From IMG/VR virus record IMGVR_UViG_3300028568_000020: a stretch of DNA of 36,848 nucleotides. The stretch is one strand, 5' to 3'. Positions 25,770-36,204 of the stretch are shown here, one piece after another. The translations under genes were made by a program, and so were the position numbers. Each line of letters begins with the position of its first letter. Position 1 is the first letter of the stretch. The stretch is from a virus. Under the pieces are notes generated by a model, which was not told where the DNA came from, ran no database searches, and saw only the letters and a program-made list of their open reading frames with translations.

Positions 25770-26087
25770 TTAGCCTCTTTTAGCCAATCGTTCTTTTAAT
25801 TTATATAATTCAATTTTATACTGTTTGCTAAATTCTTCATGGGATATTCCAAAAATATAAGTTATCTGATTTAACATTAAAATAACTTGTGCCAATTCAA
25901 GAACCAAATTATCTTTGTATTCCTTATTCTCCACATCGTCAGATTTCCATGCTTTGTTTATAGCTTGTATCAATTCTCCCATCTCTTCAAAAGTCTGCAT
26001 AATTTGTGGAACATACCCATACATCTGAACAGCATCCCTGATTATCTTATCTTTTTCCTGTTTGCAGAAACTAATTTCATCTTCCAT
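25770..26087 (-). CDS. MazG-like all-alpha NTP pyrophosphohydrolase
   Basis: YGYVPQ...EEMGELIQAINK...ELAQV (canonical E-x-A-D-V has Q for D here). Confidence 0.75.
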   Translation of the reverse strand: MEDEISFCKQEKDKIIRDAVQMYGYVPQIMQTFEEMGELIQAINKAWKSDDVENKEYKDNLVLELAQVILMLNQITYIFGISHEEFSKQYKIELYKLKERLAKRG

Positions 26088-30613: not shown

Positions 30614-32413
30614 TTAACCACCCCAACTTTTTCCTATTGTTATGTCTACATCAATCTTAACATCTGCTATAAATTGATACCACGCTTCCATCATACAATT
30701 TTTTAGTTCCCTGCTTATCCTTTCACTATCTGTTTCCTTACATTCTAAAACTATTTCATCGTGAACAATAGCCACAATTTTAACTGATCTTAATTCACTA
30801 CATAATAATGTTTTAAATATGTTAAATAGTGCTACTTTTAATATATCAGCACCAGTTCCTTGAACTGGCGTATTATATAGTTCTCCTGTAATATAATCCT
30901 TGTCATACCTTCTTATCCTGCCACCTAATGTAACACTATAATCTTTTCTACTTAATTTACTATGCCAGTCTTTTAAACCCCTATAAGTTTCAAAAAATCT
31001 TTTTTTAAATATTTCTGCTTTACCCAATGTTATCTCTAAACCAAAATTGGTCTTGGCATAATCCTTAAAACTTTCTGCCCCCATACTGTATAAAAACCCA
31101 AAATTAAATGACTTGGCTTGGTATCTTTGTTCCTTTGTTACCTGTTCTTTTGGGACACCCAGAAGTTTGCTGGCACTTAAAGTGTGTAAATCTTCACCCA
31201 ACTCATAAGCCTTTAACATGACTGGGTCTTGTGATAAATGGGTAGCTATACGCAGTTCTATCTGTGAATAGTCCGCTTTTATCAATACACCCCCATCTTC
31301 TTGTGCCTTAAAACACTTTCTATAATTCTTTTCCCTCGGCACTTGCTGTATATTGGGGTTGTTGCAACTAAACCTTCCAGTTGCTGTTCCTATCAGATTA
31401 TATTTTGGGTGTAATCTGTTATCTTTCGAACTTTTATATTTCTGATATTCCTTTCCAAAACTTGTTAATTTTTTTGATATTGTTTTATACTCAATCAATA
31501 GTGGCAGAACTGGGTGTCTGTCTTTTATGGTGTCTAAAAAGTCTTTCCCAGTTGTTTCCACTTTAATACCCAAGTTTAAATCTTGTAATACTTCTTTAAG
31601 CTGTATTGGTGAATTTAAGTTAATATGCCTATCCAACATAATTAAAATTTGGTCTTCCAGTTTATCATATTCAAACTGTAATTGTTGGGCAATAAGTTCC
31701 CAATCATTAAAATCCAGATAAATGCCATCTTTAATGCACCTTACTATTGTTGGAATACAGTTAATGTCAATGTTAAATGCCTTTGTTAATCCCATTTGTT
31801 CCAACTTATTTTTTAATATCCCATACAGTTCATAAGTTACTTCTACATCTTTTTTGGCATATCTTACTTGGTCAATACTTAATTTTTTAATCAACCAATT
31901 TCCAGTTTGTTCTGATTTATCTAACTTTATGTTAAGGTATTTGTTGCATAAATCTTCCAAACTAAATCCTTTTCTGTTTAATCCACAATCAATTATTTTT
32001 TCTGCCACTTGTGTATCAAATAACTTAAAATCTGTTCTTTTGATGTGGGCATAAGGGTAAAGCATACTTAAATCAAATATGGCATTATGGAAAACTAATA
32101 TGCCATTGGTGTAATTTAATAAGATGTTAACAATATATCTTTTTTGTTCATCATCATAATCAAAAAAATCAAATATAAAAACTTCATCATTATCAATTTT
32201 AACTTGTAGTAATCTTACATAATCTTCACTAAAATCCAACCCTGTTGTTTCTGTGTCAATGGCAATAATATTAGAACCCATTATTTTTAACATTGTATCT
32301 TTTAGGTTATCCCATTGTGCTGTTACCATCACATTGTTAAATTCTTTTTGAATATCTGCCTTTTGTTTTAAGGTATCTTCAAAACTAAATAATGTTTCTT
32401 GAACCCCTACCAT
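30614..32413 (-). CDS. polA: Family A DNA polymerase with 3'-5' exonuclease, no 5'-3' exonuclease
   Basis: ExoI IAIDTETTG, ExoII HNAIFDL, ExoIII YAKKD; motif A KADYSQIELR, motif B RYQAKSFNFGFLY, motif C VHDEI; TGRFSCNNPNIQQVPR. Confidence 0.95.
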   Translation of the reverse strand: MVGVQETLFSFEDTLKQKADIQKEFNNVMVTAQWDNLKDTMLKIMGSNIIAIDTETTGLDFSEDYVRLLQVKIDNDEVFIFDFFDYDDEQKRYIVNILLNYTNGILVFHNAIFDLSMLYPYAHIKRTDFKLFDTQVAEKIIDCGLNRKGFSLEDLCNKYLNIKLDKSEQTGNWLIKKLSIDQVRYAKKDVEVTYELYGILKNKLEQMGLTKAFNIDINCIPTIVRCIKDGIYLDFNDWELIAQQLQFEYDKLEDQILIMLDRHINLNSPIQLKEVLQDLNLGIKVETTGKDFLDTIKDRHPVLPLLIEYKTISKKLTSFGKEYQKYKSSKDNRLHPKYNLIGTATGRFSCNNPNIQQVPREKNYRKCFKAQEDGGVLIKADYSQIELRIATHLSQDPVMLKAYELGEDLHTLSASKLLGVPKEQVTKEQRYQAKSFNFGFLYSMGAESFKDYAKTNFGLEITLGKAEIFKKRFFETYRGLKDWHSKLSRKDYSVTLGGRIRRYDKDYITGELYNTPVQGTGADILKVALFNIFKTLLCSELRSVKIVAIVHDEIVLECKETDSERISRELKNCMMEAWYQFIADVKIDVDITIGKSWGG

Positions 32414-32423
32414 TTAATTTCCC

Positions 32424-34124
32424 CTAAAAGTAATTTTGCAATGTAGATTGTTCCCCATCATCTAAATCTAATTTACCAAAAATTTCATTTATTTTTTTAG
32501 CATCCCCTTTAAAAAATACTAAAACATTTTGGTGCATTTTACCAATTTTTCTTGAATTATTAAAAATTTTACCTGCCCTAATAGGTAAAGTCCCAATAGA
32601 ATTAACTAAAATAATTTCATTATATTTTAAAGCACCCCATTTCGTAAAAATATTAACCGTTTCTTCTGGTAAATTTCTATAAAAACCCTTTTCATCCCTT
32701 ACATCACCTACAACAAATACAGCAAATCTGTTATTTTTTAATTTATCTAATGACTTTTTGATAATTGAACTATACACTTCTAAAAATTGATTATAAGTCA
32801 TGTTGCTTAAATCCTGTTTGTTATCAGAATAAACCTCTAAATCAAAATATGGGGGGCAACTAAAAATTAAATCTACACTTTCATTTTCAATTAAATCTAA
32901 AACTTGATTACTATCCCCAGTTAACCAAACTGGATTAATATAATCATCTTGTTGTTTTTTTGCTGTTTCCCTGATACCAATTATCCAAAATAAATCACCA
33001 CTTTCTAAAAATGGGATGCATTTTGCTTCATAAATTGGGTCTAATTCTATTCCTTTAAAATTAGTTGTTGGTGCAAATTTATGGTAATCTAAACCACTAT
33101 CAATTAAAGTTACCTTTTCTTTCCAATCACTTGGTGCATATTTATTTAATCTTTCCTCTGGATTAGCACCAACACAAACACCCAAAACTTTAATATTTAA
33201 ATTTTGTTCTTTTAATCCCCATAATAATCCACTTAAAGACATTCCACTCCCAACAGTTATAACAATTCTTTTTACATCAGTTGGTATATCCACAACTTGT
33301 TGTTTTGTTTGATTAATAACTTCATCACATTCCATTCCAAAAGGTATTTCTGCCCATCCCAAATTTTTAGCATCTTCTCTTGCTCTTGCAACAATAACAC
33401 TATTATACCCTGCTTTATGTTGAATAATCTCTGCACCCTTTTCTTGTGCCCTAATTAATTCTGGTGAAAGTTCACCTTGTGGGGTGTGTGCCCTGCATTT
33501 TAAATTTAATCTTTTGGCTAATGTTGCAACAATATTAACTTGTGGTGATGAACGACTCCCTGCTGTAACAACACCTGTTGTTTTTAAGTTTTTCATTAAA
33601 CCCCAAGCTGTTCTAACTTTTCCACCACAAACACCATCAATAGTAAATAAATCTTCCCTTTTAAACCACATATCATCTATTTTTTGGATAGGTGTAACAA
33701 AATTAAATATAGAATTATTTGTTTTATTTTTAGGTTTTATATCTATCCATTGTTGTTCATTTGCTTCAATTTGTCTTTGACTTAAATCAATGCCTATATA
33801 GGGGTAACCTGATAAGGAAGCTACAATGCCCCTCACACTCCCACCAGCAAAACAATCTAATATTTTTCCATTTTCAACATTAAACCACTCGTAACAAATT
33901 TCACATAAAGCTGGGTCAAAAATACTTGTTTCTTGTGATTGTTTTATGCCATACTTTTTTTCATCAAATCCTTTTGGCAAACACCCAGCATCTCTCCCCA
34001 GTTCCCCTTTTATACCAAGTTTTAACCATTTTTTTCTTCTGTCTATCCAATATTGTTGTTTTGTGTCAAAAACACTAAATGGGGGTATTAAAAATTTGTC
34101 TTCTAATTTATTGAATTTTTTCAT
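32424..34124 (-). CDS. SAM-dependent amino-methyltransferase-like protein split by an in-frame fold-type II PLP enzyme domain
   Basis: MTase motifs ILDCFAGGS, GIDL, GDS, DLIFSCPPY; insert (aa ~143-386, nt ~32967-33698) with KREDL..GGKVR, TAGSRSSPQ, VGSGMS, LDPIYEAK. Confidence 0.85.
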   Translation of the reverse strand: MKKFNKLEDKFLIPPFSVFDTKQQYWIDRRKKWLKLGIKGELGRDAGCLPKGFDEKKYGIKQSQETSIFDPALCEICYEWFNVENGKILDCFAGGSVRGIVASLSGYPYIGIDLSQRQIEANEQQWIDIKPKNKTNNSIFNFVTPIQKIDDMWFKREDLFTIDGVCGGKVRTAWGLMKNLKTTGVVTAGSRSSPQVNIVATLAKRLNLKCRAHTPQGELSPELIRAQEKGAEIIQHKAGYNSVIVARAREDAKNLGWAEIPFGMECDEVINQTKQQVVDIPTDVKRIVITVGSGMSLSGLLWGLKEQNLNIKVLGVCVGANPEERLNKYAPSDWKEKVTLIDSGLDYHKFAPTTNFKGIELDPIYEAKCIPFLESGDLFWIIGIRETAKKQQDDYINPVWLTGDSNQVLDLIENESVDLIFSCPPYFDLEVYSDNKQDLSNMTYNQFLEVYSSIIKKSLDKLKNNRFAVFVVGDVRDEKGFYRNLPEETVNIFTKWGALKYNEIILVNSIGTLPIRAGKIFNNSRKIGKMHQNVLVFFKGDAKKINEIFGKLDLDDGEQSTLQNYF

Positions 34125-34174
34125 TTTTTTATCTCCTGTAATTTTTTTATTATTGTGAAAAAATTTAATTTATT

Positions 34175-34861
34175 TTATTCATTCATTGGTTTTATCTTGT
34201 TGAAATAATACATAAATGGGGTGTCAATTAAAGCATTTAATACTTTAAATAAATATCCTAATATCCCCATATTCAATAAAACATAATTTGGAAAAACTCC
34301 ATAAAATGCTATTGTTAAAAATATTAGGGTATCAAATATGCTTGCTACCATTGTTGATGCATTATTTCTTAACCATAATTTCTTTTCACCAGTTTGGTCT
34401 TTTATTTTATGAAATATTGTAACATCTATAATACTTGAAAAAGTATAAGCTATTATTGATGCTAAAGCTATTCTGGGCATTAAGGCAAATATGGCTTGTA
34501 AAGATGGTCTTGCCCAATCTTCAAAAGATGGCACATAAAGTAGCATTATCTGGGTGTAAAAAGTAAAAATTACCATTCCTGCTATCCCCAGATAACAAGC
34601 CTGTTTTGCTAATTTTTTTCCATACTTTTCACTTATAAAATCTGTTGCCAGATAACTTAAACTGTAAGTGTTCCCAATACCTGCAATTAAACCAAATATT
34701 GATGCTAATTGTAAAACTGCTATATTGGCATATATTATATATATGGGTATTAAAATAAAAAGCCCGATTTTCCCAAATATTTTATATAGCACAAGCAGTA
34801 ATCCTGCCCCTATTAAAAATTCTACAATCCACAAAATTGAGTTAAACAAAATTTCATTCAT
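34175..34861 (-). CDS. yhhQ: YhhQ/VUT-family (DUF165) 7-deazaguanine (queuosine precursor) transporter
   Basis: About six TM helices; IYANIAV, IGNTY, LATDFISEKYGKK.A, PRIALASIIAYTFS, LWLRNNASTMVASIFDT. Confidence 0.88.
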   Translation of the reverse strand: MNEILFNSILWIVEFLIGAGLLLVLYKIFGKIGLFILIPIYIIYANIAVLQLASIFGLIAGIGNTYSLSYLATDFISEKYGKKLAKQACYLGIAGMVIFTFYTQIMLLYVPSFEDWARPSLQAIFALMPRIALASIIAYTFSSIIDVTIFHKIKDQTGEKKLWLRNNASTMVASIFDTLIFLTIAFYGVFPNYVLLNMGILGYLFKVLNALIDTPFMYYFNKIKPMNE

Positions 34862-34869
34862 TTTTTCAT

Positions 34870-34930
34870 TGTCTCCTTTTATTTTTTTATCCCATTAAAC
34901 TGGGGTTGAGTAACCGTTTTAATGAGTAGT
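34870..34930 (-). promoter_or_regulatory. Structured 5' leader of yhhQ (riboswitch candidate)
   Basis: Stem CUCAUUAAA/UUUAAUGGG, inner GGUU-ACUC-AACC hairpin, then AUAAAAAAAUAAAA and AGGAG SD. Confidence 0.35.
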
Positions 34931-34941
34931 TTAAATTAATA

Positions 34942-34966
34942 GGTTATATATATAAAGGTTTTGATT
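34942..34966 (-). promoter_or_regulatory. Internal archaeal promoter for yhhQ
   Basis: Minus strand AATCAAAACCTTTATATATATAACC overlapping the end of the dpdA-like gene. Confidence 0.7.
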
Positions 34967-35732
34967 TTAACTTCCAATAAACTTCCAATCTGTTCTGTAA
35001 TTTACTCCATTCAACAAAAGACCAATTTCTAAAATAGTTTGTCTTTTGTGGTTGCGCCCTGTATTTATTTAAAGTAACTAATTTATCTTTATTATAAACA
35101 ATCAAGTCCCCAAATCTACAACTATTAACCCAAGAACTGCTATCAACACTATCAAAATTAAATCTAAAAATATCATTCATTGCTGTTAAAGCAAAACCGT
35201 GCACTAATGTCTTATTTTTATGGGCGTAATCTAACATTGGCTGGATATACCTGTAATCAATTTCCCTTCCAAAACCCACATATTTAAATTCCTTACAATA
35301 ATTTTTCCAATCATTTAAAGTTCTATTAAAACCTAATTTGCTATCCAGACCATGCCAAACTGCTATTGGGGGTTCACCAATACAATCCCATAAATAATGT
35401 CTTATTTCTTTTACTTTTTTATACGGTATAATATTATCAATATCCATTTCTACATAATTATCCCAGTAATCATAATTTTTTTTTAACCATCTAATGTAAT
35501 TTTCTACATATTTATCAACTGTTTGTTCATCTATATGTTCTAATTTTTGCAAGGTGAAAGCCCCACTATCTATCATAAGATAATGATTTTTTAGTATATT
35601 GGCTTTATGTATTCTATTTAAATCTTGGTCTTTAAAATAAGTAAAAGATATAAGATTACTTGAACTTAAATTTAAATTTTTTGAATTAATAACATTAAAA
35701 TCTGCCCAACCAAAAGATAAAAGTAATTTCAA
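34944..35732 (-). CDS. dpdA: DpdA-like tRNA/DNA-guanine transglycosylase (TGT fold)
   Basis: MIDSGAF, VEMDID, AVWH, VGFG, VHGFALT, FDSVDSSSW; adjacent to yhhQ. Start re-called at TTG 35732 after GGTGA. Confidence 0.78.
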   Translation of the reverse strand: MKLLLSFGWADFNVINSKNLNLSSSNLISFTYFKDQDLNRIHKANILKNHYLMIDSGAFTLQKLEHIDEQTVDKYVENYIRWLKKNYDYWDNYVEMDIDNIIPYKKVKEIRHYLWDCIGEPPIAVWHGLDSKLGFNRTLNDWKNYCKEFKYVGFGREIDYRYIQPMLDYAHKNKTLVHGFALTAMNDIFRFNFDSVDSSSWVNSCRFGDLIVYNKDKLVTLNKYRAQPQKTNYFRNWSFVEWSKLQNRLEVYWKLKSKPLYI

Positions 35733-35733
35733 T

Positions 35734-36204
35734 TCATTCACCAAAAAAATCTGTTAATTTATTCTGGTTTCTTTTCCCCTGTTCAATCTTTTCAATTTGT
35801 TCCAATGTTAAATTACTTGTGGGTAAAAACAAATCAGAAACAATATATCCAGTAATCACTTCTTGAAATTCTTTTGTTGTTCTCATAAGGTATTCATATA
35901 ATAAGTCGGCATTGAAAGAACTGTATTGGTCAGAAAGATTACAAGATAACATAAACTCAATTTCTTCTTGGGTATCTTTAAATTCTTTAACAATAACTGG
36001 TATTTCTTTTTTACCCAGTAATTTACAAGCATTAAATCTGGCATTACCATCTATTATTTCATTTTGGGTATTGATTACAATAGGTTGAACAATACCAAAT
36101 TTTTCAATCAATGTTACCATTAATACAGTTGTTTTGTCAATATTCTTTAAAGTTGTATATTTTTCTTTTAATTCATCAATATTTTTTTCTATTATTTGTC
36201 TTAT
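35734..36204 (-). CDS. ParB/Sulfiredoxin-like N-terminal domain protein; start ATA 36204 or GTG 36213
   Basis: FGIVQPIVIN...IIDGNARFNACKLLG...IPVIV...LSCN; C-terminal QNKLTDFF. Confidence 0.82.
   Translation of the reverse strand: MRQIIEKNIDELKEKYTTLKNIDKTTVLMVTLIEKFGIVQPIVINTQNEIIDGNARFNACKLLGKKEIPVIVKEFKDTQEEIEFMLSCNLSDQYSSFNADLLYEYLMRTTKEFQEVITGYIVSDLFLPTSNLTLEQIEKIEQGKRNQNKLTDFFGE

What the first reader, a model, noticed from the sequence alone, without database searches (positions are those of the whole stretch)
32424..34124. PLP enzyme inserted in frame into the SAM-binding fold of a DNA methyltransferase
Seen: MTase motifs I-II (DCFAGGS, GIDL) are separated from motifs III-IV (GDS, SCPPY) by a ~245-aa domain with the Schiff-base Lys (GGK169VR, nt 33618-33620), phosphate loop VGSGMS and LDPIYEAK of the ACC deaminase/D-cysteine desulfhydrase branch of fold-type II PLP enzymes. 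Both sets of catalytic motifs look intact and there are no intein signatures. Established: PLP enzymes of this kind act in phage thymidine hypermodification on amino-acid-bearing bases. No 5hmU pathway genes are visible here. Inference: a two-step enzyme, e.g. transfer of a SAM-derived methyl or aminocarboxypropyl group followed by PLP-dependent decarboxylation or elimination, on preQ1-type amines or on A/C.
Basis: partly seen in the sequence, partly recalled or inferred. Interest (0 to 1): 0.9.

Follow-up and report, generated by a model that had tools for sequence, protein, structure and literature searches.

The report
Phage DNA methyltransferase carrying PLP decarboxylase
A phage gene really does carry a complete vitamin-B6 (PLP) enzyme inside a DNA-methyltransferase fold, and its relatives and alternative partner genes suggest it attaches the amino-acid end of SAM to a DNA base and then trims it, an unstudied kind of DNA mark unrelated to the neighbouring 7-deazaguanine genes.

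Summary
ORF 32424-34124 (-) encodes 566 aa with motifs I-II, a ~250-aa fold-type II PLP domain, then motifs III-IV; all named motifs sit where stated. It is not a chimera: the PLP family has 510 clusters at E<=1e-30. It occurs as an insert, an N- or C-terminal fusion, an adjacent gene or a distant gene. This scan met the architecture before on other DNA.

The preQ1 idea fails. The nearest relative (87% nt identity) keeps the fusion but lacks the 2-kb ParB-DpdA-YhhQ cassette, and none of 80 related loci has DpdA.

The PLP domain's closest characterised relatives are ViI gp226 and M6 gp52, PLP decarboxylases acting on amino acids attached to DNA bases.

New here: a sister clade of the same methyltransferase family is almost always (73/80) abutted by an S-adenosylmethionine decarboxylase gene, experimentally confirmed in phage P2559S. 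That clade changes motif I from FAGGSVRG to FAGD.VFG, placing an Asp where spermidine synthases select decarboxylated SAM.

Best reading (about 0.4): SAM aminocarboxypropyl transfer to a base amine, then PLP decarboxylation to an aminopropyl base. Plain methylation with a PLP helper remains a serious rival. SET-PLP fusions in giant viruses are unexplained.

The parts
32424..34124 (-). Whole ORF, 566 aa: methyltransferase-fold domain split by a PLP domain
33738..34124 (-). N-terminal part of the transferase (residues 1-129): conserved PPFSVFD...RKKW segment, FDP, motif I, motif II (GIDL), helix B
33828..33857 (-). Motif I DCFAGGSVRG (residues 90-99). G95 and R98 are the positions that become D and F in the AdoMetDC-linked clade
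32961..33707 (-). Inserted fold-type II PLP domain (about residues 140-388), gp226/gp52-like
33618..33620 (-). Codon of K169, the predicted Schiff-base lysine. It aligns with K51 of DcyD/ACC deaminase and with the predicted K92 of ViI gp226
33540..33548 (-). SPQ loop (193-195), replacing SNH/SNQ of DcyD/ACC deaminase; shared with ViI gp226
33237..33254 (-). VGSGMS phosphate-binding loop (291-296)
33021..33044 (-). LDPIYEAK (361-368). The Tyr-Glu dyad matches ACC deaminase (YE) and gp226 (YEGK)
32463..32930 (-). C-terminal part of the transferase (residues 399-554): motif III WLTGDS, motif IV SCPPY, strands 4-7
32847..32861 (-). Motif IV SCPPY (422-426); CPPY is the family signature
32427..32450 (-). 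Disordered C-terminal tail ending QSTLQNYF (PIP-box-like). Found only in this lineage
30614..32413 (-). Family A DNA polymerase gene, starting 10 nt after the fusion's stop codon. The same pairing occurs in the nearest relative, and a PLP-PolA fusion exists elsewhere
34127..36192 (-). ParB - DpdA - YhhQ cassette. Context only and not part of the system: absent from the nearest relative

Best explanation
The protein is a self-contained two-enzyme DNA base modification module. The CPPY methyltransferase-fold domain binds SAM through motif I FAGGSVRG, with Arg98 retained. It flips out a base carrying an exocyclic amine (A-N6 or C-N4; which one is unknown). Instead of, or besides, the methyl group, it transfers the 3-amino-3-carboxypropyl (acp) arm of SAM and releases MTA. 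The tethered PLP domain is a relative of the phage decarboxylases gp226 and gp52, which act on amino acids hanging on DNA bases. It forms an aldimine with the alpha-amine of the appended acp group through K169 and removes CO2, leaving an N-(3-aminopropyl) base. A sister clade reaches the same product in the other order: an adjacent AdoMet decarboxylase makes decarboxylated SAM, and a transferase with a spermidine-synthase-like Asp in motif I transfers the aminopropyl group directly. Shown here: the architecture, the conservation of both active sites, the homology to gp226/gp52, the alternative partners and the motif switch. Inferred: which SAM group is transferred, the target base, and that decarboxylation happens on DNA. 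The module is independent of the neighbouring DpdA/YhhQ genes. Its likely role is protection of phage DNA from host nucleases, acting at replication or packaging (it is coupled to PolA here, and to ParB and terminase elsewhere).
For: (1) Both catalytic sets are invariant across 39 homologues and across stand-alone and SET-fused PLP proteins. (2) The PLP module and this transferase family are joined in at least four topologies plus separate genes. Among 334 PLP-family proteins collected there were 213 inserts, 42 C-terminal fusions, 15 N-terminal fusions and 30 stand-alone proteins. The family has 510 clusters at E<=1e-30. (3) The PLP domain matches phrog_3650 at E 1.5e-31. ViI gp226 is a member of phrog_3650 (2.5e-241), hhalign to gp226 gives 97.7%, and the two share the derived motifs SPQ, GYNS.I and QVANIP. 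M6 gp52 gives 94.5%. Both are purified, PLP-containing decarboxylases of amino-acid:nucleobase conjugates in DNA (PMC8989533). Cellular PLP enzymes match far more weakly (DcyD E 4.6e-11). (4) Of 80 viral loci found with the P2559S AdoMet_dc protein, 73 have a PLP-less CPPY transferase ending at the decarboxylase start. The ESH pyruvoyl motif is intact, Pfam AdoMet_dc is confirmed, and the P2559S enzyme is an experimentally confirmed AdoMetDC (PMC9992855). (5) Those transferases form one clade (support 0.997) with motif I FAGD(T/S)VFG instead of FAGGSVRG: G95D in 100% and R98F in 98%. Residue 95 is the motif-I position of the Asp that binds the dcSAM amine and repels the SAM carboxylate in spermidine synthases (PMC3725402). 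(6) PLP and AdoMet_dc partners never co-occur in the loci sampled. (7) Other associations fit amine tailoring on DNA: a GNAT fused or adjacent, and PolA fused or adjacent.
Against: The conserved core of PLP-linked and partner-less transferases cannot be told apart, and the two are interleaved on the tree. The window's own transferase sits in a clade of 31 in which 29 have no partner. Five complete partner-less virus genomes have neither a PLP nor an AdoMet_dc gene. These may be plain m6A/m4C methyltransferases, and then the PLP-linked ones may be too. The spermidine synthase / putrescine N-methyltransferase precedent (PMC3725402) shows that the dcSAM-type and SAM-type states of one fold can transfer different groups, so aminopropyl transfer in the AdoMetDC clade does not prove acp transfer here. 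The same PLP module is fused to SET domains in giant-virus contigs, which a DNA-base reading does not explain. The motif switch is one evolutionary event (one clade). No acp- or aminopropyl-modified DNA base is on record in the papers searched. The interdomain geometry could not be examined (pTM 0.66, no coordinates available).
Confidence: 0.4

Rival explanations
1. This is an ordinary SAM-dependent N6-adenine or N4-cytosine DNA methyltransferase. The PLP module is an accessory enzyme acting on the cofactor side, for example on the amino-acid moiety of SAM or SAH (product removal or donor remodelling), or on a free metabolite. It would be linked to methyltransferases in general rather than to a DNA-borne substrate.
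For: Partner-less relatives share the same core and are up to about 60% identical in the catalytic half. Complete genomes exist without any partner. The PLP module, with the same invariant residues, is also fused to an unrelated SAM-dependent fold, SET, in giant-virus contigs, and what the two folds have in common is SAM. The insertion point is a distal loop with flexible linkers.
Against: The nearest characterised relatives of the PLP module act on DNA-tethered amino acids, not on cofactors (PMC8989533). A SAM-consuming AdoMet decarboxylase as the alternative, mutually exclusive partner, together with a dcSAM-type motif I, is hard to reconcile with plain methylation. No PLP enzyme that degrades SAH turned up in the literature search.
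Confidence: 0.27
2. The PLP domain is a PLP-dependent SAM decarboxylase, a functional analogue of AdoMetDC. It makes dcSAM in situ, and the transferase domain then transfers the aminopropyl group directly.
For: The PLP module and AdoMetDC are alternative partners of one transferase family. This reading could also cover the SET fusions, with SET acting as a SAM-binding module.
Against: PLP-linked transferases keep the SAM-type motif I (G95, R98) in 31 of 32 sequences, rather than the D95/F98 state of the dcSAM clade. No fold-type II SAM decarboxylase is known (own knowledge).
Confidence: 0.1
3. One reading: the enzyme acts on 7-deazaguanine (preQ1/preQ0-type) bases installed by the neighbouring DpdA.
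For: DpdA (phrog_887, E 2.3e-30), a YhhQ-type preQ transporter (TIGR00697, E 4.5e-49) and ParB lie immediately upstream on the same strand.
Against: The closest relative (L085, about 87% nt identity) has the fusion and PolA but lacks exactly the 2.07-kb cassette at 34127-36192. None of 80 related loci has DpdA or YhhQ. The known preQ1 methyltransferase DpdM belongs to a different family, DUF3109 (PMC10516641).
Confidence: 0.03
4. The PLP domain is catalytically dead and serves as a target-recognition or structural domain of the methyltransferase.
For: It sits between motifs III-side and II-side elements, where some methyltransferase classes carry variable domains. Asn of the SNQ loop is replaced by Pro.
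Against: The Schiff-base Lys, the phosphate loop and the Tyr-Glu dyad are invariant. The domain also exists as a stand-alone ~257-aa protein and in other fusion orders. The SPQ change is shared with the active enzyme gp226.
Confidence: 0.03

Closest known systems
Salmonella phage ViI gp226 and Pseudomonas phage M6 gp52 (PLP-dependent decarboxylases of O-serinyl- and C-alpha-glycinyl-thymidine in DNA; PMC8989533)
   Same: Both are small fold-type II PLP enzymes of the ACC-deaminase-like branch. The inserted domain matches phrog_3650 (gp226) at E 1.5e-31 and phrog_7093 at E 2.6e-15. hhalign gives 97.7% and 94.5%. Shared features are the KR(D/E)D, G.K.R lysine, SPQ (gp226 only), GYNS.I, QVANIP, (V/A)GS and YE.K motifs.
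   Different: Identity is only 23-28%. The match to gp226 covers the first two thirds of the domain. The partner genes of the thymidine pathway (5-hmdU DNA kinase, aGPT-Pplase, dUMP hydroxymethylase) were not found in the window among the ORFs scanned. Here the partner is a SAM-dependent amino-methyltransferase fold.
ParB-methyltransferase genes of phage packaging loci (e.g. Enterococcus phiFL3A gp36, Listeria B054 gp77; the 'ParB-terminase locus' methylases discussed in PMC4738411)
   Same: Identity is 50-51% on both sides of the insert, with the same CPPY motif IV, the same FAGGSVRG motif I and the same N-terminal PPFS...RK..W element.
   Different: These proteins have no PLP domain (13 residues at the insertion point) and carry an N-terminal ParB domain, which the window's protein lacks. 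Their product has not been determined in any paper found.
Spermidine synthase with AdoMet decarboxylase (aminopropyl transfer from dcSAM)
   Same: Both use a class I methyltransferase fold. The AdoMetDC-linked sister clade has an Asp at the motif-I position of the GGGDGG Asp, and it sits next to a proven AdoMetDC.
   Different: The window's protein has Gly at that position and Arg98, so it is SAM-type, and it has no AdoMetDC gene. The presumed acceptor is a DNA base, not a polyamine.
SAM-dependent acp transferases of RNA (Tyw2, Tsr3, TapT)
   Same: They are a precedent that methyltransferase-like folds can transfer the aminocarboxypropyl arm of SAM to a base (own knowledge; TapT: PMC12630136, title and abstract only).
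   Different: No sequence relationship was tested or found. Those enzymes act on RNA and have no decarboxylase partner.
D-cysteine desulfhydrase / ACC deaminase (4d8t, 1j0a, 1f2d)
   Same: These are the best solved-structure matches for the insert (Foldseek E about 1e-11, TM by target 0.57-0.65). Lys51, the Ser-x-Gln loop and the Tyr-Glu dyad align.
   Different: Identity is 18-22%. TIGR01275 scores 30.8 bits against a cut-off of 289. The domain is about 80 residues shorter, and Asn79 is replaced by Pro.

Membership tests
N6/N4 amino-methyltransferase fold (Pfam PF01555) | Pfam score above the gathering cut-off | tested here: met
   39.9 bits against a cut-off of 26.7, residues 417-546. The motif-I half is matched by NF010253 at residues 79-130.
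N6/N4 amino-methyltransferase fold (Pfam PF01555) | Motif I FxGxG and motif IV (D/N/S)PP(Y/F) | tested here: inconclusive
   Motif I FAGGS is present and invariant. Motif IV is CPPY, with Cys in place of D/N/S; Cys aligns with Ser of SPPY in 2zie.
N6/N4 amino-methyltransferase fold (Pfam PF01555) | Methyl transfer to the exocyclic amine of A or C | not testable with these tools
   No biochemical data exist for any CPPY-family member in the papers searched.
Fold-type II PLP enzymes (Pfam PF00291) | Pfam score above cut-off, Schiff-base Lys and Gly-rich phosphate loop | tested here: met
   52.8 bits against a cut-off of 35. K169 aligns with K51 of DcyD/ACCD, and GSGMS aligns with the phosphate loop. 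The fold was confirmed by Foldseek.
ACC deaminase / D-cysteine desulfhydrase family (TIGR01275) | Score above the curated cut-off | tested here: not met
   30.8 bits against a cut-off of 289.4. The protein resembles the family by fold only.
gp226/gp52-type DNA amino-acid decarboxylases (phrog_3650 / phrog_7093) | Sequence membership in the PHROG families | tested here: met
   phrog_3650 E 1.5e-31 (profile positions 24-240 of 392) and phrog_7093 E 2.6e-15. gp226 itself scores 2.5e-241.
gp226/gp52-type DNA amino-acid decarboxylases (phrog_3650 / phrog_7093) | Genomic association with 5-hmdU DNA kinase and aGPT-Pplase (amino-acid:DNA transferase) | tested here: not met
   No such genes were found among the window ORFs scanned or as recurrent neighbours in 80 loci.
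gp226/gp52-type DNA amino-acid decarboxylases (phrog_3650 / phrog_7093) | Decarboxylation of an amino acid tethered to a DNA base | not testable with these tools
   This needs an enzymatic assay.
Aminopropyltransferases (spermidine-synthase-like use of dcSAM) | Acidic residue in the motif I loop (GGGDGG) that binds the dcSAM amine and excludes the SAM carboxylate | tested here: not met
   The window has G95 (FAGGSVRG). The feature is met only in the AdoMetDC-linked sister clade (FAGD.VFG).
Intein | Hint-domain splicing motifs at the insert borders | tested here: not met
   The whole insert is accounted for by the PALP fold, and the same domain exists as a free-standing protein.

The most novel reading that the evidence does not exclude
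A widespread, unrecognised class of viral DNA hypermodification in which the aminobutyryl arm of SAM, not its methyl group, is written onto a base amine by a CPPY 'methyltransferase'. The product is matured to an aminopropyl base by two convergent routes: decarboxylation after transfer by a gp226-like PLP module (this window), or decarboxylation before transfer by a phage AdoMetDC feeding a dcSAM-adapted transferase. If so, the many marine-phage speD genes of this subfamily would serve DNA modification rather than polyamine synthesis.
Probability: 0.38. Interest if true: 0.9.

Novelty: new variant of a known kind. Interest (0 to 1): 0.74.

Why it matters
If the reading is right, these would be the first DNA aminopropyl or aminocarboxypropyl transferases and a new cationic DNA base. 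Such a base would matter for evasion of restriction and CRISPR, for sequencing artefacts in viromes, and as an enzymatic handle for DNA labelling. It would also reassign a large group of phage speD 'auxiliary metabolic genes' from polyamine synthesis to DNA modification. One of them, from P2559S, is already proven to be an AdoMetDC. Even if the transferase only methylates, a PLP enzyme repeatedly welded to two unrelated methyltransferase folds in phages and giant viruses is an unexplained and easily testable piece of biochemistry. The family is large (510 clusters at 50% identity with E<=1e-30), is present in cultured phages (Pam4, vB_EliS_R6L, ZS04), and has no functional study in the literature searched.

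Tried and rejected
1. preQ1/7-deazaguanine link. Rejected: the cassette is absent from the nearest relative, no DpdA or YhhQ occurs in 80 loci, and DpdM is the unrelated DUF3109 family.

2. Assembly chimera or intein. Rejected.

3. My interim idea that the PLP domain is an SAH/SAM lyase relieving product inhibition. It was prompted by the SET fusions. I downgraded it after confirming the gp226/gp52 homology and finding the AdoMetDC partner. No literature precedent was found.

4. Search for a third conserved partner gene by clustering 1547 neighbour ORFs. Nothing recurred in PLP-bearing loci. PLP-less loci share only packaging and regulatory genes.

5. Complex prediction on the separately encoded transferase and PLP protein of locus L025: no verdict (score 0.00). 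It is reported here only and is not used as evidence.

6. The window's own assembly is not held. The nearest held record, G001, is a 9.9-kb fragment without the gene.

7. AdoMet_dc was sought in the first 84 loci. Only P2559S had it. The link became visible only when searching from the decarboxylase side.

8. Literature searches for the fusion found no description. Iyer et al. 2013 (NAR 41:7635) could not be read. M.EcoGIX and M.BceJIII are DPPY beta-class enzymes, not this family. There is no paper on Cj0600.

Full report
**The object**

The window is a 36.8-kb tailed-virus contig with about 30% GC and all genes on the minus strand. Genes identified include a helicase, an HK97-type major head protein, a protease, a portal, terminase small and large subunits, and a family A DNA polymerase.

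The ORF at 32424-34124 (-) encodes 566 aa. Pfam finds PALP at residues 150-324 and the motif-IV half of N6_N4_Mtase at 417-546, both above their cut-offs. NCBIfam places the motif-I half of a DNA methyltransferase at 79-130.

The AlphaFold2 model has mean pLDDT 84.8 and pTM 0.66. It shows a class I methyltransferase topology: strand 1 - helix A - strand 2 - helix B - [PLP domain, about 140-388] - strand 3 - helix C - strand 4 (followed by CPPY) and so on. The linkers at about 130-145 and 388-398 have low confidence.

The insert-less homologue phiFL3A gp36 aligns at 50-51% identity on both sides and has 13 residues at the insertion point. The insert thus sits in the helix B to strand 3 loop. 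From the topology, this loop is on the edge of the sheet opposite the cofactor site (inference).

**It is real and widespread**

A word-indexed search returned more than 120 proteins with E<1e-167. All carry PF00291 + PF01555, and many also carry an N-terminal ParB domain. Three cultured phages carry the architecture: Pseudanabaena phage Pam4 and Erythrobacter phages vB_EliS_R6L and ZS04.

An exhaustive profile search with the PLP domain alone found 510 clusters (50% identity) at E<=1e-30. In 39 full-length homologues the Schiff-base Lys, the phosphate loop, the Tyr-Glu dyad and motif I are invariant, and motif IV (CPPY) is conserved in at least 90%.

This scan had already met the architecture on other DNA (notes e1-3446300, e1-3266698, e1-4035729, e1-3422064 and others).

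**The PLP module is a movable partner, not a piece of the fold**

In 80 viral loci the PLP module appears in several arrangements:
- as an insert;
- as a C-terminal fusion (L024, L031);
- as a separate gene overlapping or abutting the transferase gene (L025, L030, L032);
- as a separate gene 4-8 kb away (L026, L042, L058);
- alone (L035, L062).

Among the 334 family proteins collected there were 213 inserts, 42 C-terminal fusions, 15 N-terminal fusions, 30 stand-alone proteins and 11 SET fusions. Stand-alone proteins are about 257 aa and keep all invariant residues.

On a tree of the transferase halves, PLP-linked and PLP-less members are interleaved. The window's own transferase lies in a well-supported clade of 31 in which 29 have no PLP. 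Five complete PLP-less virus genomes contain no PLP homologue anywhere. No other gene recurs beside PLP-bearing loci.

**Not a 7-deazaguanine enzyme**

Directly upstream lie a YhhQ-type queuosine-precursor transporter, a DpdA-like transglycosylase (phrog_887, E 2.3e-30) and a ParB-N protein.

The closest relative (L085, about 87% nt identity, fusion 85% identical) is collinear from PolA through the fusion. It then jumps to the sequence that in the window lies beyond ParB. Window 34127-36192 is an indel cassette bounded by a repeated TCACAATAATAA promoter-like element. None of the 80 related loci has DpdA or YhhQ. The published preQ1 methyltransferase DpdM is a DUF3109 protein (PMC10516641).

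**What the PLP domain is related to**

By fold, the best solved matches are Salmonella D-cysteine desulfhydrase, the Pyrococcus ACC-deaminase homologue 1j0a, and ACC deaminases. The curated family model is missed by far (30.8 bits against 289).

A lead from earlier scan notes was tested here. ViI gp226 (YP_004327553, L089) is phrog_3650 (E 2.5e-241). The window's PLP domain hits phrog_3650 at E 1.5e-31 and phrog_7093 at E 2.6e-15. Profile-profile comparison gives 97.7% to gp226 and 94.5% to M6 gp52.

The derived motifs SPQ (instead of SNH/SNQ), GYNS.I, QVANIP and YE.K are shared with gp226. gp226 and gp52 are purified PLP enzymes that decarboxylate O-serinyl- and C-alpha-glycinyl-thymidine within DNA (PMC8989533). 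These are the closest characterised relatives, although their pathway partners are absent here.

**The new clue: a second decarboxylase partner**

In Croceibacter phage P2559S the PLP-less family member (gp66) is overlapped by gp67, an AdoMet_dc protein (PF02675, E 2e-19).

I searched viral contigs with gp67 and obtained 80 loci. In 73 of them a PLP-less CPPY transferase ends at the decarboxylase start, usually with ParB upstream and terminase downstream. The ESH...HTFPE self-processing motif is intact. A second member was confirmed by Pfam. P2559S gp67 complements an E. coli speD deletion, so it is a bona fide AdoMetDC (PMC9992855). That paper does not mention the adjacent methyltransferase.

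The linked transferases form one clade (58 distinct sequences, support 0.997). In that clade motif I is FAGD(T/S)VFG, against FAGGSVRG in 68 of the 69 others. G95D occurs in 100% and R98F in 98%, with further changes at G403D and F69L.

By motif register (D-x-F-x-G-x-G against D/E-x-G-x-G-x-G), residue 95 corresponds to the Asp of the spermidine-synthase GGGDGG loop. That Asp salt-bridges the dcSAM amine, is held to repel the SAM carboxylate, and its mutation converts spermidine synthase towards a methyltransferase (PMC3725402). This correspondence is an inference from motifs and has not been checked on a structure.

PLP and AdoMet_dc partners never co-occur in the loci sampled. The window has no AdoMet_dc gene.

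**Synthesis**

One transferase family has two mutually exclusive, tightly linked partners, and both are decarboxylases of an alpha-amino acid. One partner acts on SAM itself, and its transferase shows the cofactor-pocket change expected for dcSAM. The other partner is related to enzymes that decarboxylate amino acids already attached to DNA, and its transferase keeps the SAM-type pocket with Arg98.

The simplest account is two routes to an aminopropyl base. This window would use the route of acp transfer first, PLP decarboxylation second. GNAT fusions and neighbours (P0248, L030) and PolA fusions and neighbours (P0231; the window itself and L085) fit amine tailoring on DNA at replication. I put this reading at about 0.4.

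**What does not fit**

Partner-less transferases have the same core and no decarboxylase in complete genomes. They may simply methylate, and so may this one.

The spermidine synthase / putrescine N-methyltransferase precedent cuts both ways, because the pocket change could be what switches the transferred group.

The PLP module, with identical invariant residues, is also fused to SET domains. These occur in contigs with giant-virus hallmarks such as Rpb6, RFC, PIF1 and Ras-type GTPases. This points to a role tied to SAM rather than to DNA, and it remains unexplained.

Hence the rival 'methyltransferase plus cofactor-side PLP helper' keeps about 0.27.

**Novelty**

No paper found in the library describes the fusion, its product, or the AdoMetDC-transferase linkage. 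The predicted chemistry has RNA precedents (acp transferases) and DNA precedents for the decarboxylation step only.

I class it as a new variant of a known kind (phage DNA hypermodification modules). There is a substantial chance that the product is a categorically new DNA base.

Noticed in passing
window 34127-36192 (compare L085:3871-4003): The ParB-N, DpdA and YhhQ genes form a 2.07-kb cassette. It is present in the window but missing from the nearest relative (about 87% nt identity). Both cassette ends carry the same promoter-like element TCACAATAATAA, found upstream of ParB and again upstream of the fusion gene. This looks like a mobile 7-deazaguanine 'import and insert' module without preQ0 synthesis genes.
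   Followed up: partly
L090-L169 (viral contigs); Croceibacter phage P2559S L084:3515-5156: A small AdoMetDC gene (77-106 aa, ESH motif intact) directly abuts a PLP-less CPPY transferase in 73 of 80 loci. That transferase clade has motif I FAGD(T/S)VFG. The P2559S decarboxylase was published as a polyamine gene (PMC9992855) with no mention of the methyltransferase.
   Followed up: yes
L033:2128-3657; L086:5328-6587; L088:3965-5266; proteins P0121-P0130: The same PLP module is fused C-terminally to a divergent SET domain (ANDG instead of NHS, ELLLDYG kept). These proteins lie in contigs with giant-virus-type genes (Rpb6, RFC, PIF1, Ras/Arf GTPase, PCIF1_WW).
   Followed up: partly
proteins P0231, P0248, P0302, P0136; locus L030:9522-9983: The PLP module has further fusion partners or neighbours: family A DNA polymerase (P0231, 1049 aa), GNAT acetyltransferase (P0248, and a GNAT gene just upstream in L030), DUF3102 (P0302), and a weak sub-threshold DUF3109 (DpdM family) match inside P0136.
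   Followed up: no
window 32427-32450; ParB C-terminus (about 35743-35766); PolA N-terminus (about 32381-32401): PIP-box-like peptides occur at three places: QSTLQNYF at the fusion's C-terminus, QNKLTDFF near the ParB C-terminus, and QETLFSF at the PolA N-terminus. Among 39 homologues, only this lineage has the tail on the fusion. This may indicate sliding-clamp tethering (also raised by scan note e1-5772019).
   Followed up: partly
L085:3990-4000: In the nearest relative the codon matching the window's ATG start of the fusion is ATA, preceded by an in-frame TAA. The gene caller there starts 48 codons later (523 aa). The N-terminal PPFS element may therefore be untranslated, or may be started from an unusual codon, in that virus.
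   Followed up: no
window 25770-26087 (-): A MazG-like nucleoside triphosphate pyrophosphohydrolase (phrog_2245, E 1.2e-18) lies between the terminase and portal regions.
   Followed up: no
Erythrobacter phage vB_EliS_R6L, L003:5058-6101: A PAPS-reductase-like gene (gp7) lies about 2 kb from the ParB-transferase-PLP gene (gp1) of this cultured phage. This may be a further DNA-modification function.
   Followed up: no
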